A DNA stretch of 64,000 bases. It comes from Rozella allomycis CSF55 (lineage: Eukaryota). The stretch's first letter is position 1, and each line of letters starts with the position of its first letter. The notes under the pieces are model-generated. The model was given only the letters and a program-made list of their open reading frames with translations, was not told the DNA's origin and did no database searches. The stretch spans positions 1-64,000 of the forward strand of contig KE561045.1 in the NCBI GenBank assembly GCA_000442015.1, written 5' to 3'. Below, in pieces: positions 5,133-56,181 of the stretch. Both the position numbers and the translations under genes were made by a program.

Positions 5133-7698
5133 TTATTGTTGTTGAACGCCTTCAGCCTTTTGATCGTCAATTTGCTGAGTTATAGGCTCCACGTCATTTT
5201 GACTTTCTTCTTGTGTTACATCCGCTTTGACTAGTGGCTCAGATGCGGGAACATCGCTAGAATGTTGATTTTCTGTCAATTGACTTTCCTTTTCCTCCTT
5301 TCCTTCCTGTGTTTCTACTTGAATTTGTTGCTCTGTTGATTCAGGTTGTGGTTGCTCATTGCTGGGTACATCTGAAGGGGCGACGACTTCAGATTTGGAA
5401 TCTTCTGCAGTTGTATTTTCAGTTTTTAGTTCTTCCTGGTCAGCCAGATTTTCACTGGGAGCACCTTCAGTTTGTTGATTCTCAGCATTAGTAATTACTT
5501 CGCCAGGCGTTACTTGTTCAACTGGTTGTACCTCGTTGGTGGCTGGGCTAATGTCATCTTGTGTAACAAGAATATGTGGTTGTGAACCATTTGGAGTGCT
5601 AAAGAAGAAATTTATTTCCCTCTCTGCACTTTCTAGAGAGTCGCTTCCATGAACTGCGTTTAATGATCCATCTGTTCCAAACATGGCCCTTATACTGAAA
5701 TCAATGAAATAGAACCAAAATACCTATCTGGAGCCTCTTCTTTGGCTTTTATAGAATTAGTCGGTCCTATAGCTTGCCGCCAAGCCTGAACCGCATCTTC
5801 TTTCTCTAAAATCAACGCGATGATAGGAGAACAACTAAATTCACAAGGGCAAATTTTACCTTGAAATCCATGAAGTCAATGTTTCATAAAATGGCTTTCC
5901 TTCATGTTCCTTGTAAAATGATTTTGCCTCATCGATCGTTAAATGAATTTTCTTTTGAGCCGCAATGTTGAAGCCCTTTTGTCTGATTACATTTAAAACT
6001 TCTTCCTCTCTTCCAGAAGAAATGATGTCGGGTTTAATCATAGCAAATGTCCTTGGAAGAATAACTTCAGGCATGGAACCACTGCTTACAGAATTACCAG
6101 AAGAAAATAAGTGTGGGAAAATATATTCAATTTCAATGGACGCATAATCTACTGATTTAGATCCATGGACGGCGTTTTGAATCTCATTGGCGCCATAACG
6201 AGCACGCAAGCTAAAGAAGATCTTTACATAAGGTTACCATTCAGGGGCAAGTTCTTTGGCCATTGCAGGATTTGTAGGTCCTATACAATCTCTCCATTCT
6301 TTCACAGCATTTTCTTTCTCAAGAACCATCGCAAGTACTGGACCACTACCGTAAATTCATATTTCATTTTCTACCTGCTTAACCAATTTATAAGATTTGC
6401 AAAGTATGGCGCATTTCTGTGCGTTATGTAAAATCCAGTTGCAGACTCTTCAGTAAATTGAACTTGTTCCATTGTAATTATCTTAAAGTCATGATCCTTA
6501 ATGTAATCAACAACTTCTGCAGCCTTTCCTGACTGAACAAGATCTGGCTTAATGATAGCCAATGTACGTTGAATAGGTGATATATCTTCTGGAAAAAAGA
6601 ATTTAACTTCCCTCTTGGCTGCCTCCTCGGATTTGCTACCATGAATTGCATTTCTAACAGTATCAGTTCCAAACATGCCTCGCAAGCTATTTCCTTTGAC
6701 CTTTATTTTTACCATTTTGAATCATTTTCTTTGGCCAGTTTTGGATTGGATGCACCAATTAACGTCCTCCAGGCACTCACAGCATTTTCCTTTGACAAAA
6801 TCATAGCAAATACTGGTCCCCTATATTCAAATGTAAAAATAATTACTCGCTCATATAATTTACCAATGATTGAAAATATGGCTGGTTTTCGTGGTCCTTG
6901 AAAAATTCAGCAACCCTTTCTGGGGTAAGCAATACCTCTTGCTGTTGCACTATTTGAAAGCCATTCTTATAAATATATCGCTTCACATCGTCAACTTTAT
7001 TTTCACTAACAATATCAGGTTTTAAGATTGCTAAAGTCCTTTCTTCCCTTTCATTGTAGAACACATGTTTCAGAGATGAGCCTTGCCTATTGTTTATTGT
7101 TCTTGCTTTAATAGACGATCTATTTCCTTCTGTTTCATTCAACTGAAGGTAATGAATGAAAACTAGAAAAATATATTTGGAAAATGAAAAAAGCATAAAT
7201 TTTAGAAAAACTTACTGGTACATGAACACCTCCAGTCTTTTCAATGTTTACCTCTTCCTTTACATATTTCTCTAAAAGTGGGGTGTTCGCCCCTTTCACT
7301 TCCTTGACCAATACCCCAGCCTATGAGTTTTGACACGTCATAATTACTGCATAAATTAAGAAGGTCGGTCGTGATTTGTTTCTGTAGATTGATAAATCTG
7401 AGATTTGATCACATTGAACCTATAATTATAGATATCTAACCAATACCTTTGCAAATGAGACAAGATCGCCATTCTCCGTTTTCAGTTTCTTTAACACCAA
7501 TGACATAGCTTCACATGAGCCAGCCCAACTGGAAAATACATCAAATACTAGTAAATTATGCCCTTGTATGCGATTTACTGTGAACACCAGGTTTTTCACA
7601 TTCTCCCATAAATTCTTCATCTGTAGACAGAAAGTTTTTCTAGTATAATTCAATTAGTTCTATTTTACCTTGACTTCTTCAGTATTCTTTCCCAACAT
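5133..7698 (-). CDS. NME8: Thioredoxin-like domain + three nucleoside diphosphate kinase domains (NME8/NME9/TXNDC3-like axonemal protein), acidic tail; 11 introns
   Basis: FDVFSSWAGSCEAM Trx-like motif; three RT(L/F)A(I/M)(L/I)KPD ... NA(I/V)HGS NDK repeats. Confidence 0.8.
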
Positions 7699-9367: not shown

Positions 9368-10008
9368 TTACATAAACAGTCCTAAATAATCTTCTTTGAT
9401 GGATCCTAATGCAATCTTTAAATTTAAGTATAAAATTTTCATTCTTACCATTTCTGAAGCCTGAACTGACAAGTTCACAATCTTCACTCTAACTTGTTCA
9501 TCTTTTATCAATTTCATCGTTTGATCTTCGGAAATATAATACGGTGGATTCGAGTTCGGTTCAAACGTAAATTCGTCGGGAAATCCCTGTTGCAGTATTT
9601 AATAACCATTTACATGATTAGATATAAAAACCCTTAGTGGGCCACAATCTACGTATATTCCAAACTATATACCAGACACATGTGAATCCATTACACTATT
9701 GACTTCGCTTATTTTCCCATCCAAAACTTGATTTTTAAATGGCCTAAACACTATGGCCTTGTATTTAATCAAAAACTTTGCAGCGCCAAATGTATCTTCT
9801 ATAACACCTCTACTTATATTATCTATATTCACAACACTAATAATATATCCAGTTTGGCCATGGAATTTCCCTTCAACTTCCATGTACAAACTGCGAGTAA
9901 GAATCTGCTTTAAACCAGGACCAAAAAATTTAGGCGGTAATGATACCTCATGTTCCAGGTCTTTCTAAAAGAATTAAAAGACACTGGAAATTTTACGAGA
10001 AAATACAT
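9368..10008 (-). CDS. RPB7: RNA polymerase II subunit Rpb7; 4 introns
   Basis: MYFLKDLEHEVSLPPKFFGP...EVEGK..GQTGYIISV...YKAIVFRPFKNQVLDG...ALGSIKEDYLG. Confidence 0.95.
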
Positions 10009-10298
10009 GTGCAAAAAACAACTGGAGTGTTTGAGAAATTTCTACTTTAATATTGATTCTTTAACGAATGTTATAAACTTGTATTTAAATAAACATTTTC
10101 ATGAAGCTTTGATTAGCAAGGTACCTATTCCTATTTACAATTTGAGATTTAAAATATCACATCAGTTCTACTTAATTTACCTAAGTTTGAAGTTTCTATG
10201 CTGCTTGTATTTTACATGATATATTTTGGGTTTTTTGATAAATAAGGCGGGAAATTAATTAAAACCAAAACAGGCATTTTAATCCTCAAAAACAAAAC

Positions 10299-12605
10299 AT
10301 GCCCGACCCGAATCGATTTTCTCAAAATAGTTTATCATTATTTCAGAGATGCAATGTGATAATTGATCGATTATTGCTTGTACCTGGATTCGATGAAACG
10401 TATCTTCAGCCCGTTCAAGAAATGACACAATCAGGAAAGAGACATTCTGTAGATCCATTGCAAGTATTATGGTCTGTTTTTAGACAAGCTGGTGGGCTAT
10501 GTATGCTAATGAATATTCTTAAACCCGGAAGCGTTGCATCGATTAATGAAATGCCAAAGAATCCATGTTTGGAAGACTTGTCGAATAATTTGAGCAAGGC
10601 GAATATGTATCATTTTCTGAAAATATGCCGTGAAGATTTGAAAATACCGCCGTCAGCATTGTTTTCGATTTCGGAAGCGTATATGGATGACACGAATTGT
10701 TTCATGAAGGTAATTCAATATAAATCGATTAATGAAAGGTAAGCTGAATGTTTTGAAGATTAAAGGTTTTGCAAACAGTTGAAGTTGTTTTAGACATAAT
10801 GGAAGGAAAGCAATTGCTTCCCAAAAACAGTGCGAGACTGTCAATGGAGAGATCAAAAGAATCTTTATTTCCTAAAGAGTTAATTGGAGATTTAGAGTTG
10901 CGAGCCAGGGTCATAACAGAGTTGATAGAAACAGAACGGAAATATGTCTCAGATTTAGAGATACTTCAAAAATACAGAGAAAATGCCGAGAGGTTGATAA
11001 CAGAAGAGGAGAATATTAAAATATTCAGCAACTTGAATGAACTATTAGATTTCCAGAGAAGGTTTCTGATATCTTTGGAATCAATGTTGCAAGTTCCCTT
11101 AAAAGACCAAACATTTGGACAAATATTTGTTTATATGAAGAGTGGATTTTCAGTTTACGAAACTTATTGTGCGACTCATAAAGTTGCGTCAGAAACAGTT
11201 TTGGAGATTAAAGAAAAACTTAAAGTAAAAGATGAATAATAAATCAACCAGCCAATTTCGCATATTTTGGATCCAGTTATTCAAATTCCATCATATTTAA
11301 TAAAACCAATTCAAAGAGTGTGTAAATATCCGCTATTGCTGCGCGAGTTGCTTAAAGGAACTCCTGAAAGCCATGATGATCATAAATGGATAGAAGAAGC
11401 TGTTGAAGTTTCAAAAGAAATAGCAGAAAAAGTTAATGAGAATCATCGACAGCAAGAAAATATTGCGATTGTTGCGGATATTGAAAAGCGGGTTGAAGAT
11501 TGGAAAGTAAGTTGAAAATAAACTTTCAACCAGGGACATGAAATTGGCCAATTTGGGGAACTTTTGCTGGAAGATAAATTATTAATTGTAGTTAATGGAA
11601 ACCAAAAAGATTTGCTAGTTTATTTATTTGAAAAGATTATTGTGATTCTAAAACAAACACAACCTTCTTTGATTAGAAGGAAATCTAAAAATCTTCAATT
11701 AAAAGGCCACATTTATCTGAAAGCAATTGACTCTATCGTTAATTGTTCAAAAGATGGTAAACTAATGATGTATGCTTAAAAGGAACATTTGCATTAAAAG
11801 TCTATTGGCAAGATGAATCTGAATTGGCGTCTTTTCAACTAATTTTCAGAATGGAAGAGCAAATGAACATGTGGCATTCAACATTAATTAGGCTATTGAA
11901 TAAACGACATTCATCCACAAGCACCATGCCTCACAATAGTTTCAGGTTTAGCACGACAACAACTTCCCGTGACTTTACGTCTAGTAAAATTAATTCTATT
12001 GTCAAATAGGGCCACTTTCACAATCCAAGAGTGTTGATGGTCTCTCCAAAGTATCCGAAAATGCAACACCGCCCAACATTCCCCTTCCAGAAAACCCATC
12101 AATTTCTCGCTCACAATCATCGCCAGACAATGAATGGAAGAAAATAACTCCACAAGCACTGCGAAAGAAGAGGGAATCCAACAACCATGAAGACTCGGGC
12201 CACTCGTTCACCCGATCACATTCACGTAACCAATCAATAGAATTCCATCGCAAATACATGAAAGATAAACAACCACAAGTGGATACAAATTCATTCGCTG
12301 ACGAGTTTGACCAATTGCTCTTAGAAACACAATTGCCGTCCCCTGCTTTTAGTCCAGTGGAGCAGGTTGCTAGGAAAGTTAAAATATACTTTGAAACTGA
12401 AATGCATTTAATGTACTTGTCGTTTCCAATGTCTTTTCAGGATTTGTTGGCGAGAGTGGTTAGCAAAATTGGCAAGGATGATGTCAAGATACAATTTGCT
12501 GATGATGAAGGCGATAGAATAATGATGACTTGTGATGATGATGTTGAATCGGCACTCTCCTTGTCACCTAATGGCACACTTAATTTATACGCTATAAGTG
12601 ATTAA
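10299..12605 (+). CDS. CDC24: Cdc24/Scd1 Rho GEF (CH-DH-PH-PB1)
   Basis: DPLQVLW..FRQ CH domain; ELIETERKYVSDLE and LIKPIQRVCKYPLLLRELL DH domain; C-terminal PB1 DDEGDRIMMTCDDDV. Confidence 0.92.
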
Positions 12606-12710
12606 ATAAATTAGATTAATGTAAATATATAGTATTAAACTATTAATGTATATAATAATTCACAACACAAATATCTTTCTTATAATTCTATAGTTCTCTT
12701 GAGTGGCTTG

Positions 12711-12973
12711 ATGCCACCGTCTTTTTGGACAAAGTTGGCATTAATTTGGGTAGCTAAAAAGGCTGTAGTGTATGGTATTGCTAGAGTATCTTCTATTTGA
12801 TAATTTAATAGGCATATGGCTTTCCAAGAATATATAGAAAAGTGTTAAGATTGAACAGAAGGTTTATAAAAGACCCTGAGACTAGAGATAAAATACAATA
12901 CATAGCAAAGACAATGATTCTATTTCCCAATATAATCAAACAAAAGTATTTAAAACTAAGAAACAAGCGATAA
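12711..12973 (+). CDS. Small basic hypothetical protein (~78 aa), 1 intron, absent from ORF track
   Basis: MPPSFWTKLALIWVAKKAVVYGIAR|AYGFPRIYRKVLRLNRRF...* after removing a 26-nt GT-AG intron. Confidence 0.6.
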
Positions 12974-13053
12974 GTGACGTTAAAATTTTTAGTTTAGACA
13001 TTAAATTTAATATCATGTATTTAATATAAATAATAAAAGTTATTTTATTTAAT

Positions 13054-14522
13054 TTATTCTTGTTCAACATCTTCTTGTTGTTCTTGTTCATCTTCTTGAA
13101 CTTTAATGTCATCGAGAGAAAGATTGTTTGATTTTTCCGAGAGAGATTCTTTTTCAAGGGTCAATTCAGTAACTTGGGCCAACAAATCTTTAATCTTTTG
13201 AGCGTTTGCAATTGAATCTTTTTTGGCTTGTTCACCATAAGAGATTATTTGAGAGTTTAATTTCTCAACACATGTAGGGATGTCATTAACGCTTGTTGGG
13301 ACAGCCACGACGACTTCAGAGAGACCAGCAATGACCCACATTGGAAGAGTAAATTTTGCTGGTGTAGAAGAAACGTTTGAAGAAGATTTCTTTGAAACTT
13401 TTTCCTTTTTCATTGAAGAATAGAAATCAGCGTCATCTTTTCTTTTAAACGCAACATCATTTTCATTCTTTTCAACAACGCGAATGTTTAATGAAGAAGA
13501 AGAGTTTGAAATGATTGAAGTTGAATTTGAAGTTTTTAAATAATTTGATTGAAAAAATTGAATTAAATTTTTGCATTTTATAATTTGTTCATTTTCGCCA
13601 GTTGATAATTGTTCTAGTCTTTTAACACTCTTTTGAGTTTCTTCAATCTTTCTTTCAACTTGTTTAACTTTATTCAACATTTCTCTCTTTTCTTTTTCTA
13701 GTTTAATTTTATTTTCATTCTTCTTTTTAAATTCTTGTAACTCTTGATAAATATCTTGCTTCTCTTTCTTCAATCTTTCAATTTCTTTATTGTTCTTTTC
13801 TCTTCTTTCATAAAAAACGTTGTTTTCATCTCTAACACTTTGCAAGGGTTTCAACTTTTCAATAATTTGGCTTCTTTCTTTTCTCGCTTGTCTCAACCTG
13901 GTTAAAACATCATTCAATTTCTCTTTCAACAAATTTATTTTTGGTTTATGTTCATTCACTGTGGTATTCTTAAATTGCTCAAAATCCTTCTTTGCCTTTG
14001 TCAACTTGGAAATATCTTGAAGCAATGACTTTTCTTGTTTCAATGAAAATGATTGTGACTCGATCATAACCTCCAATTCCCTACTAATCTAAATTTATTC
14101 TGTTTACTTTATGCGTCTATCAATCTCTTCAGTATTCTTGTATGGAAACTTTTCCTTTGCCTTGTTAATCTCATTGTTTCTTGAATCAGCCCTTTGCTTC
14201 ATTTCTTCAATGTCCTTTTCAACTAGCTCATACTCTTGCTCAAGCTCTTCAATCTCCTTCATTTTGTTCTTCTTCTCCAACATCAATTTCTTAATCTCTT
14301 CTCTAACAACAGATGACTTTTCTCTTTCTTCCAAATCTTTGTTTATTTTTTTCTGTCTTTTTATACTCATTTCCTTACTTGCTCATTAACCTTGGTCTTG
14401 ATTTTCTCTTCTACAACCTTGATACGGTCATAAAATTTATCTTTTTGGACCAAAAATGCCGATTTTGGTGCAGCGCGTGTTTTTTCCTTCTTTAGGGATT
14501 CCAAGCTGGCAGTCGATATCAT
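13054..14522 (-). CDS. Long coiled-coil protein, Bfr1-like; 2 introns
   Basis: K/E-rich heptads; FPYKNTEEIDRRI..LE.MIES.SFSLKQEK.LLQDISKL and FTLPMWVIAGLSEVVVAVP resemble Bfr1. Confidence 0.6.
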
Positions 14523-14830
14523 GTGTTCTTTTTTCAACCAGGGTATTGAGAAAATTCAAAATAGAAAGTGACAGATCAGGTTGAATACTCAACCTAAAAT
14601 AACCTGCAAGTTGTGTTACGCAATTGTTAATAAAATAATTAATATTTTGTTTGTCGTTATTATTGAATTAACTTTATTGATTTATTATGATCTGAATTTG
14701 GGCTATTGAACGCATGGTTTCAGAGTGAATTCTATTTTTATTACACAATGAAAACGTAATTGGTCTGTTTAGAAAATCTCCTGAATGAAAGACCCCGGAC
14801 ATATTCCGCAAACAAACTCAAGTTCATAAA

Positions 14831-15298
14831 ATGAGCTCAAATCAAAAATACTGCAACAACAAGAATCTGCATTTATCAAACAGTGCCGATGCAAAACACA
14901 AACATTCCAGGATTCGGTCTCCATCAGAGCCCAACAAAACTCCACGGAAACAGCGCCCCACTTCAAACTCTCAACAGTACAAAGAAAGACCACACTCGGC
15001 TAAATATTCCAAAGATTTATTTTCAGAAAGATATGCTGGAGCCGCGTACAATAATGCTCCATGCGCTAGCTCGCTCCCCATTCCTATTTTCAAAAAAGAA
15101 AAGACTGACTCTGAAAACTATGATAAACCAGAAAGCGGAATACACTCGTTATCCTCGTCTCCGGCTAGTTTACCATTTATTGTAGAGACAGGCGCTCTTA
15201 AATGGAATGGAATTTTATCGAAAAGGCGACCCAGCAATGAAGATATTAAACTGGATATGACGAATGATTTGAAGAGGCTTTTGAAGATCAACTCCTAG
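14831..15298 (+). CDS. PNRC/Edc1-like decapping-enhancer motif protein
   Basis: Disordered protein with YAGAAYNNAPCASSLPIP motif and C-terminal MTNDLKRLLKI. Confidence 0.7.
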   Translation: MSSNQKYCNNKNLHLSNSADAKHKHSRIRSPSEPNKTPRKQRPTSNSQQYKERPHSAKYSKDLFSERYAGAAYNNAPCASSLPIPIFKKEKTDSENYDKPESGIHSLSSSPASLPFIVETGALKWNGILSKRRPSNEDIKLDMTNDLKRLLKINS

Positions 15299-15480
15299 TC
15301 GACATTATGGAGCCGCATAACATGTATGAAGCCTATGGCGGAACCCTTTGTTATGCACTCCAAGTTTTGAAATTAAAAAAAATAAAAAAAATTTATTGCG
15401 GTGCGGGTGGAAACATTCGCATACGCCTAATTTATAATGAAATTTCTAAATTGCACCTTGTTACTTTATAGAATTATATA

Positions 15481-16176
15481 ATGACGTCAGAATGCCCTAT
15501 GCAAAACAAAGAAGGTGCAAAGGGTGACAATGTTGATGTAAAAGAATGCCCAATAGACCATTCAAAATTTGATACCAAGAATATGATGGAAAAGGACTTG
15601 CAAAAAGATGAAAATGTCAACGATGCACTGGGAAAGAATAGAGTGAAATCATCGATACCTAAAGATGATATCGAAGATCATTGGGTCTATCCTTCAGAGC
15701 AAATGTTCTTTAATGCTATGAAAAGAAAAGGATATCCAGCTCAGGAAAGAGATATTGGAAATTTAGTTACAGTACACAATGTCGTAAACGAACAATGCTG
15801 GGTTGAGATTCAAAGATGGGAAAAGAAATTTCATTGGTAAAAGTGCTTATTTATTATCTTCAGCGATTGTGATGACCTGAAACTTTCAAGATTTAGAGGC
15901 AAAGCAGAAAAACAATCATTGAAGGCTAGAATAAGGTCAATGTTGGGGTAATTAAAGTATCTATTATCAAGTAGTTATGTAGAACCATTCGATCGCCATG
16001 ATTGGGTGATTGATCGATGTGGGAAAGAAGTGTGTTACATCATCGATTTCTATCAGGGCAAAAATGAATCTAATTCTCCAATATCAATGTTTTTAGACGT
16101 TAGGCCTGCTTTAGAAAGCGTGTCGTCCCTCTGGGACAGAGTTAGAATGAGTATTGAAACATTTTCATGGAAATGA
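15481..16176 (+). CDS. Holocytochrome-c synthase (cytochrome c/c1 heme lyase); 2 introns
   Basis: N-terminal CP motifs, [45 protein letters not shown]. Confidence 0.95.
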
Positions 16177-16184
16177 GTAAAATT

Positions 16185-17506
<1,322 letters not shown>

Positions 17507-17678
17507 CGTATTTTATGTTTGGAATATTCAGCCACTCCGACAAAAGGCACAAAACTCAGTGAAAAACTAAGTTACGATTTATAGTAGTGAAAATGATCAA
17601 CTATCAATTATCATGATTTAAATAAATTTGTATTTCGAAATCGTTTAAAGAAACGTAATTTGTAATTTTCCAAGCTCA

Positions 17679-18428
17679 ATGGACAGCATTGATAAACTTC
17701 TGAAAAGGTTCATGATAACGAACAAAGAAATATCAGATACAGCGAATAATTATCATAGAAAAATTCAAAGCTATTTTAGTGATACAAGTTCCAAGTGTAT
17801 TTGCATAGATTTAGCATGCCGAATGTTAAAACAGAGTCCTGTCACCCAGACGAGTTTATTAGATGTTTCCGGGATTAAGATTACAGCATATAAGAAGCAG
17901 TATAATCAGATAAAACAGCTTTTGGGTCTGGAAATACCCGTAACATTTGAAGAGTTATCAGTTGCTTTGGGTGCCACCTCATTAAAGAAAGATTGTGAAA
18001 TTATTTATGAACAGATTAATGAGAGAATGCCAAATGTTTCGAGAAGCATTCTAGTCGGTGCCGTCTTCTATTGTGTTTGCAAGGCTAGTGGAATGAGTGA
18101 AAAGGCTGTATCTAAATCTAACATTATTGATAGGGTGATGGCCAATAAGAAAGAATTTGAAACATTAATAAAATCTATACAAGAAGTCGCAAAAGAGAGT
18201 TTAGCTGAATGTCAGCGCGCAACAAAAAGGCCGAGGAAAAAAGAAACCAATGATGGAATAGAGAAAGAAGAAAAGAAAGCGAAAAAGATTAAACAAGTAG
18301 AAATTATTAATATTGAGAATACCATGAAGAATGGCATACATAGAATGATTGAATACCGAAATTCATTCAAAGAAACAATTCAATTTAAAAACTACTTGAA
18401 TTGGAAAGAAAAAATACTTTCTGCATAA
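17679..18428 (+). CDS. ORC6: Origin recognition complex subunit 6-like
   Basis: KCICIDLAC...Y...IKQLLGL...VTFEELSVALG TFIIB-like fold; C-terminal Y.NWKEKIL. Confidence 0.7.
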   Translation: MDSIDKLLKRFMITNKEISDTANNYHRKIQSYFSDTSSKCICIDLACRMLKQSPVTQTSLLDVSGIKITAYKKQYNQIKQLLGLEIPVTFEELSVALGATSLKKDCEIIYEQINERMPNVSRSILVGAVFYCVCKASGMSEKAVSKSNIIDRVMANKKEFETLIKSIQEVAKESLAECQRATKRPRKKETNDGIEKEEKKAKKIKQVEIINIENTMKNGIHRMIEYRNSFKETIQFKNYLNWKEKILSA

Positions 18429-18445
18429 ATTTTTTTCATTTATTT

Positions 18446-19627
18446 CTAATGTGGATCTTTTTCATCTATTTTTCCTCTTTGTTTTGCGACAAATTTGTGA
18501 TAATCTAAAAATTCACATGTATGTTGATTTCGAAGGCTTAAAGACCAAGTAGGCGCTAAAGACTTTTGTGCAGCAGATTCGCTGTATCCACTACGGCTGA
18601 TAACTAATGAATCCATTCTAGTCATCAAAGACCAATCCAAGTGAGTTTTTAAGAAATAGTCAAACATTTTATTTTCATCTTGCAGCTCTAAGACCTCATC
18701 ATCGTTTGGTAAATCTATGTGTACAATTTGTTTGTCGACTGATTTTATTTCACTATCTGGTGATTGGAGTCTTAACCCATTTAAAATTTCATTGTGACTT
18801 TGAGGATTATCAGCAGTTATGAAAAATAAACATTTCTTGGTTTGTTCTTTGCATAGTTTAACAGCTTGACTAATAAAACATTGAATATTTTGCTGCTGCC
18901 TTGGCACTCCACCCCACAACATGTCGCCACCTCTGTACTGAATTCCAATTTTAAAGGTATTCTTGTTCTTTAGGTATTTTTGTATCTTTTTTTCTAATCT
19001 AGGTGTTTCTTGGAATGACAATCTTAGAGGAATCGCCGCTAGAATGTTTTTGTCGGCATTCTTTAGAAAGGGGAAAAAATGTTTTATGATTCTTTGATAT
19101 TTTGGATTTTCAAATAATTCTGTAAACTCATACTTGTTAGTTCGTATTTCTAGTTTATTCTTTTCCAACTTTGGCACGATTTCGTTCTCATATTGCACAT
19201 ATACACCAACATCATTGATAGACGAGCGATCAGGTTTATTAAAGGGAATGTCGTAATACAAATCAATTGGATAAAGCAGGTCCCATCGATATTCAAAGTT
19301 GTAATTGTTTAATAGAGCCAAGTAAAATGTGTAAATATATCCTCGGACCCGGTCACCCCATCCTCCACACCATTTTTCGTGGCATCTAAATACAATAGTT
19401 TTGGGACTTTTTGGTCTAAGCTTCAAGTAATTTCGAATATATTCTACATAATGATCAGCTAATTCACTATCTGATATACTCGTTTTAACTTTGCCATTCA
19501 GTACCTCTTGTTTAAAATCAATTGAATCGGGTTGAATGAAAAATGCAAGTAATGATACTAAAGCTAGACATTGCAACCAAATAATATACTTTCTTTTGAA
19601 CGAGCTAAACCCTTTGACGTTTTTCAT
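18446..19627 (-). CDS. Type II membrane GT-B fucosyltransferase-like protein (GT23/GT37/GT11 clan), intronless
   Basis: N-terminal TM segment; CGGWGDRVRG, KIGIQYRGGD, FFITADN, DWSLMTRMDSLVISRSGYS motifs. Confidence 0.7.
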   Translation of the reverse strand: MKNVKGFSSFKRKYIIWLQCLALVSLLAFFIQPDSIDFKQEVLNGKVKTSISDSELADHYVEYIRNYLKLRPKSPKTIVFRCHEKWCGGWGDRVRGYIYTFYLALLNNYNFEYRWDLLYPIDLYYDIPFNKPDRSSINDVGVYVQYENEIVPKLEKNKLEIRTNKYEFTELFENPKYQRIIKHFFPFLKNADKNILAAIPLRLSFQETPRLEKKIQKYLKNKNTFKIGIQYRGGDMLWGGVPRQQQNIQCFISQAVKLCKEQTKKCLFFITADNPQSHNEILNGLRLQSPDSEIKSVDKQIVHIDLPNDDEVLELQDENKMFDYFLKTHLDWSLMTRMDSLVISRSGYSESAAQKSLAPTWSLSLRNQHTCEFLDYHKFVAKQRGKIDEKDPH

Positions 19628-19653
19628 GTTTCGAAATTACGAAATTAAGCACA

Positions 19654-20199
19654 ATGGAAAACGATGATTATGTTTCTGAATTGTCGATTTCGGAAGATGA
19701 AGATGGGTTAATAATTGAAACTCATAGACAAATAAGTTCCAAATTAGATGAAAATAAAAGGGATGAGGAAAACCACAAAGAAGAGAAACCAGATATCATT
19801 AATGATCATCAAACTGAAACCAACACACGAAAGGAATCTGACATAAATATTGATATTCTCCATACGATTCTTTTGAACATTAAGCGAATCCAACTTGAGC
19901 AAGAGTACATTCAAAAAGAATTGGTTGAAATAAAGAAACGACAAGAAAGGCGCAAAATAATCCATGAAAAAATACAAGCAACCGAAGAAAGTAAATCAAA
20001 TTCTCAAAAGCTCTACAACAGTGATCAAAATTTGGCAGTCAATCCTGTAGTAAAGTCAGAAAAGTCTGGGACAATACCAAGACAAAGATCTTCCGAACCA
20101 ATTTTAAATTTGCAAGAAAAAATATCAGAATCCAAAGTATACCAGGATGCTTTAGATCTTTTAGTAAATGATATCATAAAGATGGAATTTTCCTTTTAA
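19654..20199 (+). CDS. Hypothetical coiled-coil protein
   Basis: 181-aa ATG-initiated ORF; no recognised domain. Confidence 0.5.
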   Translation: MENDDYVSELSISEDEDGLIIETHRQISSKLDENKRDEENHKEEKPDIINDHQTETNTRKESDINIDILHTILLNIKRIQLEQEYIQKELVEIKKRQERRKIIHEKIQATEESKSNSQKLYNSDQNLAVNPVVKSEKSGTIPRQRSSEPILNLQEKISESKVYQDALDLLVNDIIKMEFSF

Positions 20200-20216
20200 A
20201 TCTTTTTTTACTTTTT

Positions 20217-21176
20217 ATGACAAGAGGTTTTGAAAAACGCAAATGGACGAAAGAAACCCTGATAAGAGAAATCAATTCACAAAAATCAAAGTTTCGACGT
20301 AAATTTTGTCATAATTGGTGAGTTAGCTGATTCTTTGTCAGCTAAAGCTAACAAACACGATTGTTATGAAAAATCTGTTCAATCTGTTAAACAAGAGGTG
20401 CAAACTCTATTCAATCTGTATAAAACCTATTTTCCAAATAGGGTTCCATATATCCTGAGAGAAGATTTTTGTGGAACTGCATTATTGTGTAGAGAATGGC
20501 ATGATTTCAATGTCCAAAATACTGCATTAGGGGTTGATATTGATGACTCCGTTTTAAAATATTGCGCTGAAAGATATCCTGAGAAAATAGAGTCTGGTCG
20601 ATTAACGCTGTATAATCAAAATGTTCTAGATCGAAATGAGAGCATCCCAAAGGCTGATATCTTGTCTGCTTTGAATTATTCACTTTGCTATTGGAGAACT
20701 AAAGGTCAGCTAACTGAATACTTGAAAGTTTGCCACGATAATTTGAAAATCCATGGAGTTGCAGTTTTTGATCTATTTGGAGGTTACAATGTTTATAAGG
20801 GAGGAGATTTAACGTGCAGAGAATTTGATGAATTTTTGTATGTATTTGAAAAGCGAAAATACAATTTCATGATTGATAGGATTGAATGTCATATGCATTT
20901 CAGATTTCCAGATGGTAAGAATTGCTTTTAATGTTAATAGGGTCATGGCTAAAGGATGCATTTTTTTATGATTTTAGAGTTTGGGGAATCCCTGATATTT
21001 ATGAATCATTAAAGGAGGCGGGATTTAAACGAATCAGTACATGGGTATCGACATCGAAAATGAATGAAGATGGAGAATTAATTAGTGCCACTCCTTATGA
21101 ACAAATAACAAGTGATGAAGAAAGCTTGAAATTGAATAGTACCAACTGGAATGTCTACGTCGTAGCAAGTAAATAA
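20217..21176 (+). CDS. SAM-dependent methyltransferase; 2 introns
   Basis: YEKSVQ, LREDFCGTALL, ALGVDID, ADILSALNYS, FDLFGG, AFFYDFRVW. Confidence 0.8.
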
Positions 21177-21420
21177 ATAAATAAATAGAAATTTATTTGC
21201 ATTATAAAATCCCGTGGAATTTTGTTGGTGTATTGGACTTTATGGTAAGTATGATTACCTGATATTTATTCGCTAATCGCTCTTAGTCTTGGAGGGGGAA
21301 TGTCGATTGTCGGAAATGGTGCCATCAATTTTTGATTTTTGCGGGCAGGCAGTTTTGAGAGTATCAGAATTTACAGAGGATTAACAATGGAAAGTGAGAG
21401 GCCAGGTCATGTTTTAACTT

Positions 21421-22925
21421 TTATTGGATCCTTATTTATCAATTTGAGTATAGATAAGAGATTTCCACTGACTACGATGGGTATTTCGCGTGCCCAAATC
21501 TTAATGTCTTGTNACCATTTCGAAAAAAAATGTATCTAATTCAAGTAACTATTAATAAAAATAGTAAAACACTTCGCAAAGATAATTCATTCATGCTAAA
21601 TAATCCTCAGTCATTATTCATTCGCTTTCTTTCAAACTTACAAACTTCTTTGCCCGATGATGTAAAATTATACGAGATATACCTCGTTCATAGTACTAAC
21701 ACTACTGTTCGCTTTCAAGATGACGAATTTAATGAAATAGCACTTTCGTCACTATCTGATTGTTATCCAGCCTTGAAGCAGCTTACTTAAAGTATTAATA
21801 TTGAATCGTTTAGTTACCAATAAAGACACCAAATTAACTTTTATTTCTTATTAATTTTCCCTCTCAATATTAAGAAACGAAAACTTACTTGATTGTAATC
21901 CAGGATTTTTGTTAGTTTTATCAATGATTCTGAGAAGACTGGCATAAATACTTAAATAAAATTAGATGTTTTGGCCATCACAAAACTTACATACCATGAT
22001 TTATAATATTGTTAATCACAGTATCTCAAGCATTTGAGCGTTGTCATTATCAGCTCTATTTGCCGAATTTATGAAAACCAACTTGATTGTAATCCAGGAT
22101 TTTTGTAACTTTAAGTCTTGGCCATCACAATTCTTACCATGAAATTCCGTTCTACCTTCAAAAGTGTTTATGGCGTATCTATTTATTTATTGCTTTCTTT
22201 TGTATANAAAGAAAATACTGCTAAATAGGCCATTTTGCCATCTAGAAATTGAGTTTATCACAGTCGAAAACCTCAGTGATCAATATTAAATACTTTTAAC
22301 GTGGTAATTAAGGTCTAAATTTTGTCAATATTATAAAATAGAATAGTTAATTGAATGATGCAATTATTTTGTAAATCTGTTGCGGATAGGAATGTGCCAT
22401 CATGATGTCTATTTCCCTTCCTAAAGTTCAAAGTATCAGTTCTATCGGATTTAAATTTTTAAATGATACTGGATTATGGATAATGGAAAAGGACATTTAT
22501 TTAAATTATTACGTCCATATTATCTTTAATAGTAATTAATAAAATTAACATGATCTCTTGTAAGATCGCAACTTTAGGTTTACTCTAGCAGTATCGTACG
22601 ATATCACGGAGTATCCACTTCAAGAACTCACATTTCCTAGAAAAAACTCAGTACGAGAGTATTAATAAATAATGGCTTAACCCTTTTAACTAAATGGAGA
22701 ACTTGTAACTCACATTAGAAAAAACAGTCCCATACTTACCATTAAAGATATTTTTGGCAAATGGCAAGGCATAATCTGCTGCTTGCACAGTAAAAGAAAC
22801 AAAATCCATAAAATCAATAAGCAGAAATTGCTTTATGGAGGCTGTTCACCTTCTTNATGTTTTATTTGATCCCAATTTATCAATGTTAGTATAGATAAGA
22901 GATTTGGACTAACTACGATGGGTAA
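21421..22925. repeat. Gene-poor interval with degenerate dispersed repeats (21421-21485 ~ 22861-22925; 21887-21945 ~ 22081-22140)
   Basis: Shared ATTTATCAAT..AGTATAGATAAGAGATTT..ACT.ACTACGATGGGTA and ACTTGATTGTAATCCAGGATTTTTGT...TTGGCCATCACAA. Confidence 0.7.
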
Positions 22926-23051
22926 TCACACCATTACAAGCCAGGAGCTGGAGGGAATCAAGAGAGGCTAGCCGATGTTCAAATCCCTGCATCAGCGGGG
23001 AGATGCGATATGTTACAAGCAAAAAATTAACTTATTATGAATGAAATGAAT

Positions 23052-24929
23052 TTAGTTATGTTTATTGATTGATTGTAGATTTACAAGTTTTGAAAAGGAA
23101 CCGTTTGGATCTTCAAGCAATTCATCAAAGGAGCCCATACTCTCTATAGATCCTTTATTCAATACAATTATTTTGTCTGCTTGTCTTATTGTCGATAGTC
23201 TGTGTGCAATAATAAGAACGGTTCGTCCTTTGACAAGTCTTTCCAGAGATTGTTGAACAAGAACTTCACTTTCAGCATCCAATGCGCTACTCGCCTCATC
23301 TAGAATAAGAATTTTGGGATTTCTAAGAAACGCTCTAGCCATCGCAATGCGTTGCTTTTGACCCCCTGATAGAGACGTTCCTTTTTCTCCAACTAGAGTT
23401 TTAAATTTATCAGGAAAATTCATAATGAAAGAATAACAATTTGACATTTTTGAAGCTTCAATGATTTCTTCTTCTGTCGCGTCTGGATTTCCGTATCTAA
23501 TGTTCTCTTCAATTGTCCCATCAAATAAGATTGGCTCCTGATTAACAAGGCCAATAATCTTTCTCCATTCTGTTAATGAAATATCTTTTAACTCCAAACC
23601 ATCAATTTTAATCGAACCTTCCAAGGGATCATAAAATCTTAACAATAATTGAACCAAAGTAGATTTTCCAGATCCAGAATGACCAACACACGCTGTTGTC
23701 TTTCCTGCTTCTAATTCAAATGAAATTGAATTTAAAACAGATTGATTTCTACCAGGGTAAACAAAAGAAACCTCTTTGAATTCTATTTCAGGGGTTCTAT
23801 TTTTAGGTAGCATTAATTGATGATCTTTAATTGATTCAATTTTAGGATTATTTTCCAACATTTCAAATATTCTCTCACTAGCCCCAATGCCTTTATTGAC
23901 TTCACTGTAAAAGGAAGAAAGCATGGCCATTGAACTACCAACATAAACTGTATACAACAAAAATGATCCTAAACTTCCAACAGATATTTGTCCAGCTGAA
24001 ACTAAATCACCAGCCGTATAGAATATCCCAAGAATCGCCATATTCCCAGCAAAATTGATCTTTTAAACATAACGAATTCACTTACCAATGAATAAAATCC
24101 TGAACTCGCAATTGTTTCTTTTATCGCCAAATTATAAATCCTTTTTATTTTATCCTGATATGCATAAAGTTCTCTTGTTTCATTCCCAAATGCTTTCACA
24201 GTCTTTATTGAAGATAGACGCTCATCAGCAATCTCCATGGCTTTAGAAATAGCAGTTTGTGTATCAGATCCAAGTTTTCTAACGTATCTACCATACGCCA
24301 CTGCACTCAGCGCAATAGGTGACACAATTGAGAGCACAACAAAACTAAGATATGGTGACACAGCAGTCATCATTGCAACGCCAATAATAGTCTGGCATGT
24401 AGCTCTTAAACCGTCATTCAACTGAGACGTCAGTGACTTGCCCACAATTTGCGTATCCGATGAAAGTCTCTTGGATTATTCAAGCTTTAAATTACTACCG
24501 AAATTAATTCACCAGTCCTAGTCTTGTCAAAAAACGATATGTCTTGTTTCAATATGTGCTCATACAGGTCTGACCGAAGTTTGAATATGATCTTCTCTCC
24601 TGCTACCCTGAACATGAAAACACGGGCAAAATTTGCAATAATCCCGATTGTAAATAATCCAGACATTCCCCAAAGCACAGTGCTTAAAGAGTAGCCAATC
24701 TTTTCTGGTTGTGTTACAATGTCCACCATCTGTCCCATCGCGTATGGTACTGTCATTGATATCCCCGAAGTTAATACAAGTAATGTTGATGCCCCTATAG
24801 AATATAATTGAGAAATTTACCTGCAATAAGTTGACGATGCTCGCGAGCAAGATTGAAAAAGCGTTTAAATTTACTACTTTCTTTGCCTTGCAATGAATGA
24901 TTAAACCGTTTAAACACTTTGCAAAACAT
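23052..24929 (-). CDS. MDL1: Mitochondrial half ABC transporter ABCB10/Mdl1-like; 3 introns
   Basis: GHSGSGKST, LSGGQKQR, LILDEASSALD; TMD with FFDKTRTGELISRLSSD; basic presequence MFCKVFKRF. Confidence 0.88.
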
Positions 24930-26002
24930 TGCTTGTCCTCCCAGCGATTTTCTCATATATATCGATAGCATGACGCTTTCCTGTTTAATCAGTTTTGTTG
25001 TGGCTCAGATAGGCGATAGCTGATTACATTAACCATTCCGCACGATAGCGGCATAACCAAAGCTAGGAATTAGGGTGACNCTTGTAACGGAGAGAAAGTG
25101 TACAAACATAACGTTGAGAGTGGGTTGAAGTAATTATGTTCTTGAAGTTGAACGATAGCCACTGGACTGTTCGCACAGTGACAGACGCTTTGAAGGCTCT
25201 CAAACTGGCGATTAAAGAAAATGATACTGTAAATGATGAAAATAATGTCGTAACATGCTGCTGAAGTGTTAAACAATATGGAAAGTCTTGATATTAACAA
25301 TAATTTTATTGTAAGTACCCCGGTAGATCCAGAGGATCAATTCCTTTTTAATTTTACATAAATTTACTTACCCTGGTCTGAAAAAATTATTCTCTTTGTC
25401 ATAATGTCAGTCTACAACTTATAACAAATAATAAGGATTCAAGTGATGACGATCATTAAATCAATAACTAGTAATTTCCTCAATTGGCGTCACGATATTA
25501 TATTTTAAATATAAAAAACATTTTTCTCTAATATTGTGGGAAATCATGATGCTTCCGGACGTAGGTGCATGGTTCGAGCCCTATCACCCGTTTCCCGTAA
25601 AAATCCTGGTGATTTTTTCTGGTAATTTCCAAAACTTAGTACCGTAGAATTCTCCAGAGAATCATAAAACCCTATGAGTAGTATTGTCCCCAGCCCTGCT
25701 CCAATTACACCACGAAACATTTTTTTTATATTTAAAATAATTTAATGAAAACTCTGGCAAAATTTGGAATAATCAGTTTTGCTGTGGCCAGTAGGGGATT
25801 GATTACATTAACTATTCCAAAGCAAATAGCTTAGTTTAGGACAAGTCTAAATTTTATGTAAATGTTTATTGGAAAAAAGATCAGTCAATATTTGCAACTT
25901 TCCAGTTCTTCGGATTTAATATTCTCGTCATTNTTTGAATATGGTCTTCCCTCCTGCCACCCGACACATTTTTTTATATTTTAAACATTTTTTATTTAAA
26001 GT

Positions 26003-26157
26003 AAAGAAGGGGAAACCATTCGTCAAAATCACCTTGGGATCCTCCTGAAAATTTTAAAGAATTTAAGCTCCAAAAACCACATCCATTGGGAGTTGAACAC
26101 AGGGTTTTAAGTTAAAGACTTCAAAATTCCAGCGCCCTCTCCAATTCAAGCCGGGGG
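26003..26157 (-). mobile_element. Degenerate tRNA-derived (SINE-like) element, homologous to 35335-35484
   Basis: Reverse complement shares CCCA.TGGATGTGGT...AGCTTAA.TTCTT...CAAGGTGATTTTGAC.AATG.TTTCCCCTTC with the second copy; B-box-like GTTCAACTCC. Confidence 0.55.
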
Positions 26158-26857
26158 AAACAATAGTTATATTGTACTATTGTGAATAGTGTAGTCTTGA
26201 TTGTGGAGGTGTCCCGTCCAACAATATATTGACAAATGACAATATACGGAAATATTGTTCACTCTGGCAGTTAAATAGGAAAAAACCGAGGAACAAAGAT
26301 TGTGTTTCTGTGTTTTTTAAAGAGATTGAAGATAAACCTCATCATTACAAATGTNGCTGGCTAAGATTGACTAGAACCTAGCCTGAATTCGTCCAGCGGG
26401 CACATCTTTGGTTTCGGAAGCAATGATTTCTGCCACTGGGCATATTGCGCGGAGCTCCCGTGTCAATGAGACAAACAAACATCAACGACAAGATATTTCG
26501 CTGGTGATTTTCCAGGCACAAAATCGTTATATATAACGCTACACAAGCACTTCATTTTTGCAGTCAGGTGAGTACTTCATTTTTATTTTCATTAAAACCA
26601 GGTTGGGAGGCAAGAACTACAAAGAAAACGTAAAGTCTCTAGTAAAGGCTGCACCTTTGTTGCAGACTTAAAGCGTATTATCAAGCAGGTTTCCTCACTT
26701 GTTTGTTGCCTACGACGATTCTCAATTCACTGTCCTTCTGGTTGAAGGAATCACACAAATCGACTCAGAGATTTCCTATTGATGACTTGAAAGGGATTCA
26801 AAGATATTCCTTGGCAACGAGACGAAATAATNAATCTTTGAAAAACAATTTATTGAA

Positions 26858-27139
26858 TTATTTTGATGGAGTGTTTGGGTTCATCTAAGATAAAGAAATA
26901 GGCTAAATATTTACGCGAATTTTTTGACCAGAAGCAGCACCAACCATCATCTTATAGCGTCTCTTGTAAAGAACTCTTTTCTTTGCACGACCTACATCAT
27001 CACCGGGTATTAAAGATACCTCTAGGAGTTTTTGGTTTATCTACCTTTTCAACTTTTGGAGTTTGAGATTTAACTTTTCCGGCGCGCGCCAGAGAACCGT
27101 GCATTTTACCCTATACATAATAAAATAGACTCATACCAT
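26858..27139 (-). CDS. RPS30: 40S ribosomal protein eS30; 3 introns; absent from ORF track
   Basis: [23 protein letters not shown]...[14 protein letters not shown]...MNPNTPSK*. Confidence 0.95.
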
Positions 27140-27352
27140 TTTTGAAAAACTAAAGCAAGGGTCAAGTGGCGCAGAGTAGAATTTAAATTTCTGCCTTTGT
27201 GGTGCAAAATCCTTTGTGAGGTTAATAACATCCAAATATTGAATTGATTATAAACTTATTTTTTGCGACTAAAGAAGCTAACACCCCTTAATCTGATTTT
27301 TCGTAATTTGTGTGGCTAATTTTTCAACGCCCCCTGGTTATTCAAGGAAAAA

Positions 27353-27854
27353 ATGGTAATTCATTTGGTTGGCAATAAAGCTAGACTGACGACGCAGTTG
27401 AAATAAAGAAGAAAAGAACTTTTCGCAAGTATACCTATCGTGGAGTAGAATTGGAAAATCTTTTAGACCTTTCCTCCGAAAAAGTAAAATATGTGTCCTT
27501 AGCATGATATAGCTTATGGAACTTGTCAACGCTCGTGCTAGAAGACGTTTTCAACGTGGATTAAAAAGAAAGCCAATGGGGTTAATCAAAAAGCTTCGCA
27601 AAGCTAAGAAAGAAGCCGCTCAAGACGAGAAGCCGGCTGTTGTCAAAACTCATCTTCGTGATATGATTGTTGTTCCAGAAATGATTGGATCAGTTATCGG
27701 GATTTACAACGGAAAAGTCTTCAATCAAGTCGAAATTAAACCAGAAATGGTTGGACATTACCTTGGTGAATTTTCTATTACTTACAAGCCAGTCAAGCAT
27801 GGTCGCCCAGGTATCGGAGCTACATCTTCTTCAAAGTTTGTTCCTCTTAAATAA
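27353..27854 (+). CDS. RPS15: 40S ribosomal protein uS19 (S15); 2 introns
   Basis: [17 protein letters not shown]...[17 protein letters not shown]...[17 protein letters not shown]. Confidence 0.97.
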
Positions 27855-28165
27855 ATATGCACTTTCGATACTAGTTTTGTTATATTCATTGTTGGATTAG
27901 TTGCACGACCTTTTTTGATGTCAACCCTAAGTAATCACATTGGACCCTATAAAATTGGATTCGTTTTTTTCAATGAACTACTAAGATAATCTCGTAATGA
28001 TTTTTCAAGTGAATTTTTTTGAGATTGACAAAATAATAGTTATCACTTATCAGCTTATCATTAAAAATACCAGAAATCTGAGGGCATTAATTAGAACATT
28101 GCTCTTTTATGAATCCAGGATAACCGCGCACAGAGAAGTAAAAATAGATCCTAAAAATCTCCTGT

Positions 28166-29692: not shown

Positions 29693-29737
29693 ACAGATGT
29701 TCTTAAATTGAAAACAATATTCAATTTTATAATAAAT

Positions 29738-34194: not shown

Positions 34195-34630
34195 TTGAAA
34201 CAACGTTTAAATTGTTAATTGAGTAAAGGACAAAAACTTATGGAATGCGAAAATACAAGGGAAAAAACATTAAAATACAAAACCACAATACAAACATCAA
34301 AAAACACAATGAAACAATTGATTAATAATCACGGTCACGGGAGCGGTAACCTCTGTCTTCATAACGGCCACGTCTTTCGTATCCTCTGTCGTTTCCATAT
34401 CTAGAGCCACCTTCGCGTCTGTATCCACCTCTTGATCCGAAGCCACCTTCGCGGCCACCACGGCGATTTCCATCACGTCTTTCAGAGCGTTCTCCAGCTC
34501 TATCGACACGGAGTCTGCGACCTAGACTTAATGACAAGTAGGGTAATTACCGTCGAATTCTTGGTCATTCATTTCTTTGATGGCATTAGCAGCATCGTCT
34601 TCGTTTGTGTAAGTGACGAATCCAAATCCA
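34195..34630 (-). repeat. Near-identical partial copy of the 3' half of the RRM gene (34632-35069) across N34631; likely second haplotype or assembly overlap
   Basis: A few SNPs (e.g. GRYEDRG vs GRDEDRG); the copy is truncated exactly at the N. Confidence 0.8.
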
Positions 34631-34760
34631 NGTTGAAACAACGTTTAAATTGTCAATTGAGTAAGAGGACAAAAACTTATAGAATGCGAAAATACAAGGG
34701 AAAAAACATTAAAATACAAAACCACAATACAAACATCAAAAAACACAATGAAAGAATTGA

Positions 34761-54337: not shown

Positions 54338-56181
<1,844 letters not shown>

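What the first reader, a model, noticed from the sequence alone, without database searches (positions are those of the whole stretch)
10710..10765. Two back-to-back mini-introns with a zero-length exon (candidate recursive splicing) in CDC24
AAG|GTAATTCAATATAAATCGATTAATGAAAG|GTAAGCTGAATGTTTTGAAGATTAAAG|GTT TTG CAA. All 56 nt must be removed to give the conserved Cdc24 FMKVLQTV. The segment is twice the usual intron size and splits at an internal AG|GTAAG into 29-nt and 27-nt units that each look like a normal intron here. Recursive sites are best known from very long animal introns. Here they could let a length-limited spliceosome remove a longer intron (inference).
Basis: partly seen in the sequence, partly recalled or inferred. 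Interest (0 to 1): 0.8.

Follow-up and report, generated by a model that had tools for sequence, protein, structure and literature searches.

The report
Two abutting mini-introns in Rozella CDC24
In the CDC24 polarity gene of the parasitic fungus Rozella allomycis, a 56-base interruption consists of two complete 29- and 27-base introns placed end to end with nothing between them, so it is probably cut out in two steps, though no RNA data were available to show this.

Summary
The window is Rozella allomycis CSF55. Bases 10710-10765 interrupt the Cdc24/Scd1 gene after ...FMK and must be removed whole. That gives the contiguous F-x-K-V motif found in 61 of 70 homologues, and the public protein has the same junction.

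My gene models for the window predict 123 introns. Of these, 119 are 24-32 nt and the mode is 27. The 56-nt piece is therefore about twice the norm. It splits at an internal AAG|GTAAGC into 29 + 27 nt, and each unit scores like a good real intron (73rd and 91st percentile). It is the only abutting pair on either strand. Simulated 56-nt introns show such a centre in 0.07-0.3% of cases.

All three boundaries read AAG|GT, so either order of removal recreates a normal site. Every partly spliced form hits a stop codon.

Two-step splicing across a zero-length exon is the most likely route (about 0.55). It is untested, because no RNA run holds the locus. The "length-limited spliceosome" idea is weak: a probable 73-nt intron without internal sites lies in the same window.

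Zero-length exons are already shown in S. pombe and Cryptococcus, but only in introns over 330 nt. I rate this a new variant of a known kind, of moderate interest.

The parts
10299..10709 (+). Cdc24/Scd1 exon 1 (137 codons, ends ...FMK, phase 0)
   Evidence: Translation. Pfam CDC24-CH matches profile 1-80 of 89. 100% identical to public protein P0003 over the shared part.
10710..10738 (+). Mini-intron unit 1, 29 nt, GTAATT...GAAAG
   Evidence: With the matrix trained on 96 other introns: donor 8.8 bits (80th percentile), acceptor 5.9 (48th), sum at the 73rd percentile.
10738..10739 (+). Zero-length exon: an acceptor AG directly followed by a donor GT (AAG|GTAAGC)
   Evidence: It is the only abutting acceptor-donor pair of intron-like units in the window, both strands.
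10739..10765 (+). Mini-intron unit 2, 27 nt, GTAAGC...TTAAAG
   Evidence: Donor 8.6 bits (77th percentile), acceptor 7.5 (76th), sum at the 91st percentile.
10766..11224 (+). Cdc24 exon 2 (153 codons, starts VLQTV; end of CH domain and first part of the RhoGEF domain)
   Evidence: Translation. Pfam RhoGEF profile 1-107. The CDC24-CH match continues across the junction in P0003.
11225..11251 (+). Intron, 27 nt
   Evidence: Same junction as in P0003.
11252..11506 (+). Cdc24 exon 3 (end of the RhoGEF domain)
   Evidence: Pfam RhoGEF profile 129-180.
11507..11533 (+). Intron, 27 nt
   Evidence: Same junction as in P0003.
11534..11756 (+). Cdc24 exon 4 (PH domain)
   Evidence: Pfam PH_10.
11757..11782 (+). 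Intron, 26 nt
   Evidence: Same junction as in P0003.
11783..11983 (+). Cdc24 exon 5
11984..12009 (+). Intron, 26 nt
   Evidence: Same junction as in P0003.
12010..12605 (+). Cdc24 exon 6 with PB1 domain and stop codon
   Evidence: Pfam PB1. Gene model.

Best explanation
The 56-nt interruption of the Rozella allomycis Cdc24/Scd1 gene is two complete U2-type mini-introns of the species' normal size (29 + 27 nt). They lie end to end at one phase-0 position, so a 3' splice site abuts a 5' splice site: a zero-length exon.

Shown by the sequence:
- Each unit has its own strong GTAA donor and its own A/T-rich tail ending in AAG.
- All three boundaries read AAG|GT.
- Removing unit 1 therefore rebuilds AAG|GTAAGC, and removing unit 2 leaves unit 1's acceptor in front of GT as before.

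Inferred: the spliceosome pairs each outer site with the nearest partner at the usual ~27-nt spacing. The two units are too close to be processed at once, so they come out one after the other. Most likely unit 1 goes first as it is transcribed, followed by re-splicing at the regenerated donor (5' recursive splicing). Removal of all 56 nt in one step remains possible as a side route.

The arrangement is fail-safe. Every order gives the same mRNA, and every incomplete product carries an early stop codon.
For: Anatomy and frame.

All 56 nt must go: the homologue profile gives 436.7 against 418.2 bits; 61 of 70 homologues have the contiguous motif; the Pfam CH domain is unbroken across the junction in P0003.

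Usual intron size: 119 of 123 predicted introns are 24-32 nt, and 101 are 26-29 nt. The 96 training introns are all 24-31 nt.

Each unit scores like a real intron: 73rd and 91st percentile of 96 introns, which did not include the two units.

Units of this quality (donor and acceptor each at or above the 45th percentile) number 34 on both strands. 28 of them are predicted introns, and only 1 lies unpredicted inside a gene on the sense strand.

Only 1 abutting pair exists among 116 intron-like units. By my arithmetic, 116 x 116 / 128,000 gives about 0.1 expected.

Simulated 56-nt introns carry such a centre in 35 to 155 of 50,000 cases, depending on stringency.

No RNA structure hides the internal sites (z = +0.47).

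Precedent in fungi: zero-length exons with junction, branch or end-mapping evidence in C. neoformans BOT1 and S. pombe SPNCRNA.445 (passages read).
Against: There is no RNA evidence at all, so the order and number of steps are inferred.

A probable 73-nt intron without internal AG|GT lies in the same window. Microsporidia splice a 76-nt intron well. Both show that length alone need not force a split, so a one-step route using the outer donor and the last branch point is feasible.

The intron census comes from my own gene finder. Its matrices were trained on its own predictions. Only two junctions were checked by Pfam profile continuity: MCM and glycerol kinase.

No clear branch-point motif could be defined, so I cannot show that each unit has a branch site.

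This is a single case.
Confidence: 0.55

Rival explanations
1. It is one ordinary 56-nt intron, removed in a single step from the donor at 10710 to the acceptor at 10765. The internal AAG|GTAAGC is a leftover or an accident that the spliceosome mostly ignores.
For: A probable 73-nt intron with no internal AG|GT lies at 7143-7215 (minus strand) and is used by the public model P0123. A 76-nt microsporidian intron is spliced better than the miniature ones. The outer donor and outer acceptor are both strong.
Against: An internal acceptor plus donor of this quality arises in only 0.07-0.3% of simulated 56-nt introns. The internal sites are as good as those of real introns and sit at the modal spacing. 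28 of the 34 units of this quality in the window are predicted introns. No RNA structure masks them. Ignoring a canonical 29-nt intron would be odd for a machinery that splices about 120 such introns in this window.
Confidence: 0.33
2. Only a 20-nt intron (10739-10758) is removed. Unit 1 and the last 7 nt of unit 2 are coding, which gives a 12-residue insertion in the CH domain.
For: This model is in frame. My gene finder chose it when each intron cost 16 bits.
Against: The homologue profile scores it 18.5 bits lower and treats the 12 residues as an insertion between adjacent conserved columns. 61 of 70 homologues have no insertion there. 20 nt is below all 96 training introns, which are 24-31 nt. 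The public model does not use it.
Confidence: 0.05
3. It is an assembly artefact or a very recent tandem duplication of one intron, with no bearing on how splicing works.
For: All three boundaries share AAG|GT, the microhomology that a tandem duplication would use.
Against: The two units are no more alike than random pairs of introns from this window: alignment score 3, at the 50th percentile of 4,560 pairs. So this is not a duplicated read or a recent duplication. The public protein comes from a 76-kb contig with the same junction.
Confidence: 0.03

Closest known systems
Zero-length-exon recursive splicing in fungi: C. neoformans BOT1 (375-nt intron = 210 + 165) and S. pombe SPNCRNA.445 (336-nt intron). 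Preprints 10.1101/224170 and 10.1101/226894, passages read.
   Same: A 3' splice site sits directly next to a 5' splice site inside an annotated single intron, in a fungus. The final mRNA lacks the whole piece.
   Different: Those introns are 6-7 times longer, and their steps were shown by junction, branch or end mapping. Here the whole piece is 56 nt, each half has the species' modal intron size, it lies in a coding region, and no RNA evidence exists.
Zero-nucleotide ratchet points in long Drosophila introns (Duff et al., preprint 10.1101/006163; abstract in search listing only).
   Same: A juxtaposed acceptor and donor. The 5' splice site is regenerated after the first ligation.
   Different: Per the abstract, ratchet points subdivide large introns. 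The figure of tens of kilobases and the link to transcription time are my recall. Here both halves are minimal introns, and either order of removal would work.
Stwintrons and other complex intervening sequences of fungi (PMC5639578, PMC7138796; passages read).
   Same: Two U2-type introns at one position in a fungal gene, removed by consecutive reactions. They may originate through new splice sites or a duplicated donor within an intron.
   Different: [quoted passage not shown] Here neither unit interrupts the other, and both are intact from the start.
Miniature introns of Microsporidia, the sister lineage (PMC6349667; passages read).
   Same: Very short introns. That they show a narrow size class is my recall, from Lee et al. 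2010.
   Different: Microsporidia keep few introns. Their one long intron (76 nt) is reported as a single, well-spliced intron, not as a tandem.

Membership tests
Zero-length-exon (zero-nucleotide) recursive splice site | An acceptor AG immediately followed by a donor GT inside a piece that is absent from the mRNA | tested here: met
   AAG|GTAAGC at 10738|10739. The mRNA must lack 10710-10765.
Zero-length-exon (zero-nucleotide) recursive splice site | The first ligation regenerates a consensus 5' splice site | tested here: met
   Exon 1 ends AAG, so removing unit 1 gives AAG|GTAAGC, identical at positions -3 to +6 to the unspliced context. Donor score 8.6 bits, 77th percentile.
Zero-length-exon (zero-nucleotide) recursive splice site | Intermediate junctions or lariats seen in RNA | not testable with these tools
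   No RNA holder was listed. The one run laid did not cover the gene.
Zero-length-exon (zero-nucleotide) recursive splice site | The host intron is long for its genome | tested here: met
   56 nt against a mode of 27 nt. Only 4 of 123 predicted introns fall outside 24-32 nt. In absolute terms it is far shorter than any published case I read.
Zero-length-exon (zero-nucleotide) recursive splice site | The site is conserved in related species | not testable with these tools
   No relative closer than 44% protein identity was found. The metagenome scan found none.
Stwintron (strict sense) | An internal intron interrupts the donor, acceptor or branch element of the external intron | tested here: not met
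   Both units have intact donors and acceptors before any splicing.
Rozella mini-intron (U2-type GT-AG, as seen in this window) | GTA donor, length 24-32 nt, [A/C/T]AG acceptor | tested here: met
   Unit 1 is 29 nt (GTAATT...AAG) and unit 2 is 27 nt (GTAAGC...AAG). Both lie within the range of the 96 training introns.
Cdc24/Scd1 Cdc42-GEF | CDC24-CH, DH (RhoGEF), PH and PB1 domains in that order | tested here: met
   PF06395, PF00621, PF15411 and PF00564, all above their curated cut-offs.

The most novel reading that the evidence does not exclude
Rozella's spliceosome defines introns with a tight ruler of about 27 nt. An intervening sequence that holds internal sites at that spacing is then always taken out unit by unit. 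That would make this the smallest recursively spliced intron known (56 nt, two lariats of 29 and 27 nt). It would also be a natural test case for how a minimal, microsporidia-related spliceosome measures intron length. Genome-wide, most introns of about twice the modal length would be tandems of this kind.
Probability: 0.2. Interest if true: 0.75.

Novelty: new variant of a known kind. Interest (0 to 1): 0.52.

Why it matters
Recursive splicing across zero-length exons is usually explained as a way to handle very long introns. A case where both halves are already minimal introns would show something different: the arrangement can arise and persist simply because each half is an optimal substrate. 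It would also show that re-splicing at a regenerated donor works at the smallest scale.

It would offer a simple, single-locus assay (RT-PCR or lariat sequencing) for how an intron-definition spliceosome with a very narrow length optimum chooses its partner sites, in the lineage that leads to the reduced microsporidian spliceosome.

It also bears on annotation. Gene callers that do not expect 24-32-nt introns mis-model these genes, and two public models in this window differ from mine.

Tried and rejected
Whole genome: none is held for this window, so the genome-wide AGGT test could not be run.

RNA: no RNA holder was listed. The single run offered (X1, a metatranscriptome with the same species label, share 0.00) was laid on 9801-29800. 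It gave 9 contigs, and the pieces listed match only about 21-37 letters each; none covers the gene.

Relatives: the metagenome scan with P0003 found 174 pattern matches but no relative. The protein search found nothing closer than 44% identity.

Earlier findings of this scan: nothing relevant.

Gene finder with long introns allowed:
- With limits of 200-400 nt it chained neighbouring genes through spurious "introns", so I dropped those runs.
- Confined to single gene spans with introns up to 150 nt allowed, it proposed 17 introns over 34 nt, for gains of 0.2-6.1 bits.
- On inspection, 11 of them overlapped or extended short introns into neighbouring sequence and 6 cut out stretches with no short-model intron.
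- The 62-nt proposal of the 120-nt-limit run is refuted by Pfam continuity: the MCM profile runs 55-154 then 155-224.
- The 67-nt proposal of that run (dihydrolipoamide dehydrogenase gene) was rejected only by my reading of the frame and recalled conserved motifs. One search scanned the downstream exon alone.
- The 108-nt proposal of that run (Rpb7-like gene) and the 51-nt proposal (RRM gene) were rejected only on conserved motifs that I recall.

Recent duplication of one unit: rejected, because the units are no more alike than random intron pairs.

Branch-point motif: no clear motif emerged from 96 introns.

RNA structure over the region: none.

Rfam and tRNA scans of the window: nothing.

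Papers: James et al. 2013 is not held. Table S7 of PMC8042348, which should give Rozella's median intron length, is not among the supplement texts held. The main text says only that fungal intron medians ranged from 29 to 197 bp. I found no paper describing abutting mini-introns or Rozella intron sizes in searches.

Full report
**What is there.** Exon 1 ends ...TTC ATG AAG at 10709. A 29-nt unit follows (10710-10738, GTAATT...GAAAG), then a 27-nt unit (10739-10765, GTAAGC...TTAAAG), and then exon 2 begins with GTT TTG CAA.

The window comes from Rozella allomycis CSF55. Exon 1 is 100% identical to the public protein P0003, named 'Rho guanine nucleotide exchange factor scd1 and CDC24-like protein'. 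My gene model has six exons and encodes 715 residues. It carries the Cdc24 domain set: CDC24-CH, RhoGEF, PH_10 and PB1.

**Must all 56 nt go?** Yes.
- Leaving both units, unit 2 alone or unit 1 alone gives a stop after 10, 2 or 18 codons.
- The only other in-frame option is a 20-nt intron (10739-10758) with a 12-residue insertion. My gene finder picked it under a heavy intron penalty.
- A profile built from 70 of the 119 fetched Cdc24 homologues (P0003 left out) scores the 56-nt-removed model at 436.7 bits and the 20-nt model at 418.2 bits. It places the 12 residues as an insertion between adjacent conserved columns.
- A regex finds the contiguous T-N-x-F-x-K-V motif in 61 of the 70. I saw the other 9 only as regex snippets. 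One has a 7-residue insertion at this point, two diverge right after it, and six did not match.
- The three that break exactly here could reflect annotation trouble at an intron in the same position in Mucor and Gigasporaceae. That is a lead only; I had no DNA to check it.
- Pfam's CDC24-CH match in P0003 runs unbroken over profile positions 1-89 across the junction.
- The public model uses the same junction.

**How unusual is 56 nt here?** No genome is held, so I wrote a small gene finder for the window. It combines a three-periodic Markov coding score, splice-site matrices and dynamic programming.
- With introns limited to 20-34 nt it gives 42 gene models and 123 introns. 119 are 24-32 nt, 101 are 26-29 nt, and the mode is 27.
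- These models score higher than models that use longer introns. For example, the MCM gene scores 136 against 94 bits.
- Pfam continuity confirms two junctions. In MCM, profile 55-154 is followed by 155-224 across a 29-nt intron. In the glycerol-kinase gene, FGGY_C runs 77-108 and then 111-196.
- With introns up to 150 nt allowed inside the same gene spans, 17 longer ones appear for gains of 0.2-6.1 bits. On inspection none is convincing.
- Caveat: the census is my own prediction and its matrices were trained on its own output.
- A paper on single-cell genomes that includes R. allomycis says fungal intron medians ranged from 29 to 197 bp, without naming the species in the passage I read (PMC8042348). 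Its Table S7 is not among the supplement texts held.

**Are the two halves real intron units?**
- A matrix trained on 96 introns that exclude them puts unit 1 at the 73rd percentile and unit 2 at the 91st percentile of donor-plus-acceptor score.
- Units with donor and acceptor each at or above the 45th percentile number 34 on both strands. 28 are predicted introns, and only one lies unpredicted inside a gene on the sense strand.
- A scan for abutting pairs among 116 intron-like units found only this one. About 0.1 would be expected from 116 x 116 / 128,000, by my arithmetic.
- Simulated 56-nt introns with the real ends and an interior drawn from a first-order model of real introns have such a centre in 35 of 50,000 cases at the 45th-percentile level the real pair passes. 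At the 10th percentile it is 155 of 50,000, and any central AGGT occurs in 765 of 50,000.
- The region has no notable RNA structure (z = +0.47).
- No clear branch-point motif could be defined in this genome's introns.

**How it probably works.** All three boundaries read AAG|GT. Removing unit 1 rebuilds the donor context of unit 2 exactly. Removing unit 2 leaves unit 1's acceptor in front of GT as before.

I infer that each outer site pairs with the nearest partner at the usual spacing, and that the two units, being adjacent, cannot be processed at once. They would then leave one after the other, most likely unit 1 first as it is transcribed. That would be 5' recursive splicing across a zero-length exon. 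Every order gives the same mRNA, and every incomplete form carries an early stop.

None of this is shown by RNA. No RNA holder was listed, and the run laid did not cover the gene.

**Against a hard length limit.** A probable 73-nt, T-rich intron at 7143-7215 (minus strand) joins the thioredoxin part to the nucleoside-diphosphate-kinase part of one gene. My gene finder proposed it and the public model P0123 uses it. It has no internal AG|GT. It is not verified by RNA, and a two-gene reading is possible.

In Microsporidia a 76-nt intron is reported to be spliced at about 80%, against under 20% for the miniature introns (PMC6349667, passages). So the split is probably not needed. It is more likely the consequence of two optimal units lying side by side.

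**Origin.** The two units are no more alike than random intron pairs (score 3, 50th percentile of 4,560 pairs). A recent duplication or an assembly artefact is therefore unlikely. An old duplication at the AAG|GT microhomology, a second intron gain at the same proto-splice site, or new sites arising inside an older, longer intron all remain open. The last is the route proposed for Lipomyces stwintrons (PMC7138796).

**Comparison with what is known.** Zero-length exons with recursive splicing were shown in C. neoformans BOT1 (375 nt = 210 + 165; preprint 10.1101/224170). They were also shown in S. pombe (two instances, one in a 336-nt intron; preprint 10.1101/226894). They are known in flies as well (listing only).

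Strict stwintrons differ, because their internal intron interrupts a splice element of the outer one. That is not the case here.

I found no paper on abutting mini-introns of modal size or on Rozella intron sizes. James et al. 2013 is not held.

**Verdict.** The two-step reading is the best explanation at about 0.55 and a single-step 56-nt intron at about 0.33. The length-limit rationale is weak. I rate it a new variant of a known kind, of moderate interest, and easily testable with RNA.

Noticed in passing
whole window: Predicted introns are extremely short and uniform. Of 123 predicted, 119 are 24-32 nt and the mode is 27. Donors are mostly GTAA and acceptors [A/T/C]AG. I found no paper that discusses this for Rozella.
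   Followed up: partly
55658-55684 (+): In the glycerol-kinase-like gene, Pfam FGGY_C continuity (77-108, then 111-196) needs a 27-nt gap that starts GT but ends TG rather than AG. This is either a non-canonical 3' splice site or a base error.
   Followed up: partly
7143-7215 (-): A probable 73-nt, T-rich intron joins a thioredoxin-like part to three NDK domains. The public model P0123 uses it. It has no internal AG|GT. A two-gene reading is not excluded.
   Followed up: partly
10299-12973 (+) and 5133-7698 (-): Public protein models differ from mine. P0003 starts 41 residues later, drops 6 residues in the PH domain and reads past my stop codon through a 96-nt 'intron'. P0123 joins wrongly after ...YFQSL, where two mini-introns flank a 35-codon exon.
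   Followed up: partly
34227-34965: A direct repeat of at least 300 nt at 99% identity, spaced 439 nt apart, lies inside an RRM-protein region. It may be a tandem duplication or an assembly duplication.
   Followed up: no
1-1700: Several diverged direct repeats (78-97% identity) lie among tandem paralogous ORFs on the minus strand.
   Followed up: no
17 single positions, e.g. 378, 1384, 21513, 62449: Isolated single N letters are scattered through the window.
   Followed up: no
27353-27384 (+): One gene model has a first exon made of the start codon alone, followed directly by a 29-nt intron. The model scores low.
   Followed up: no
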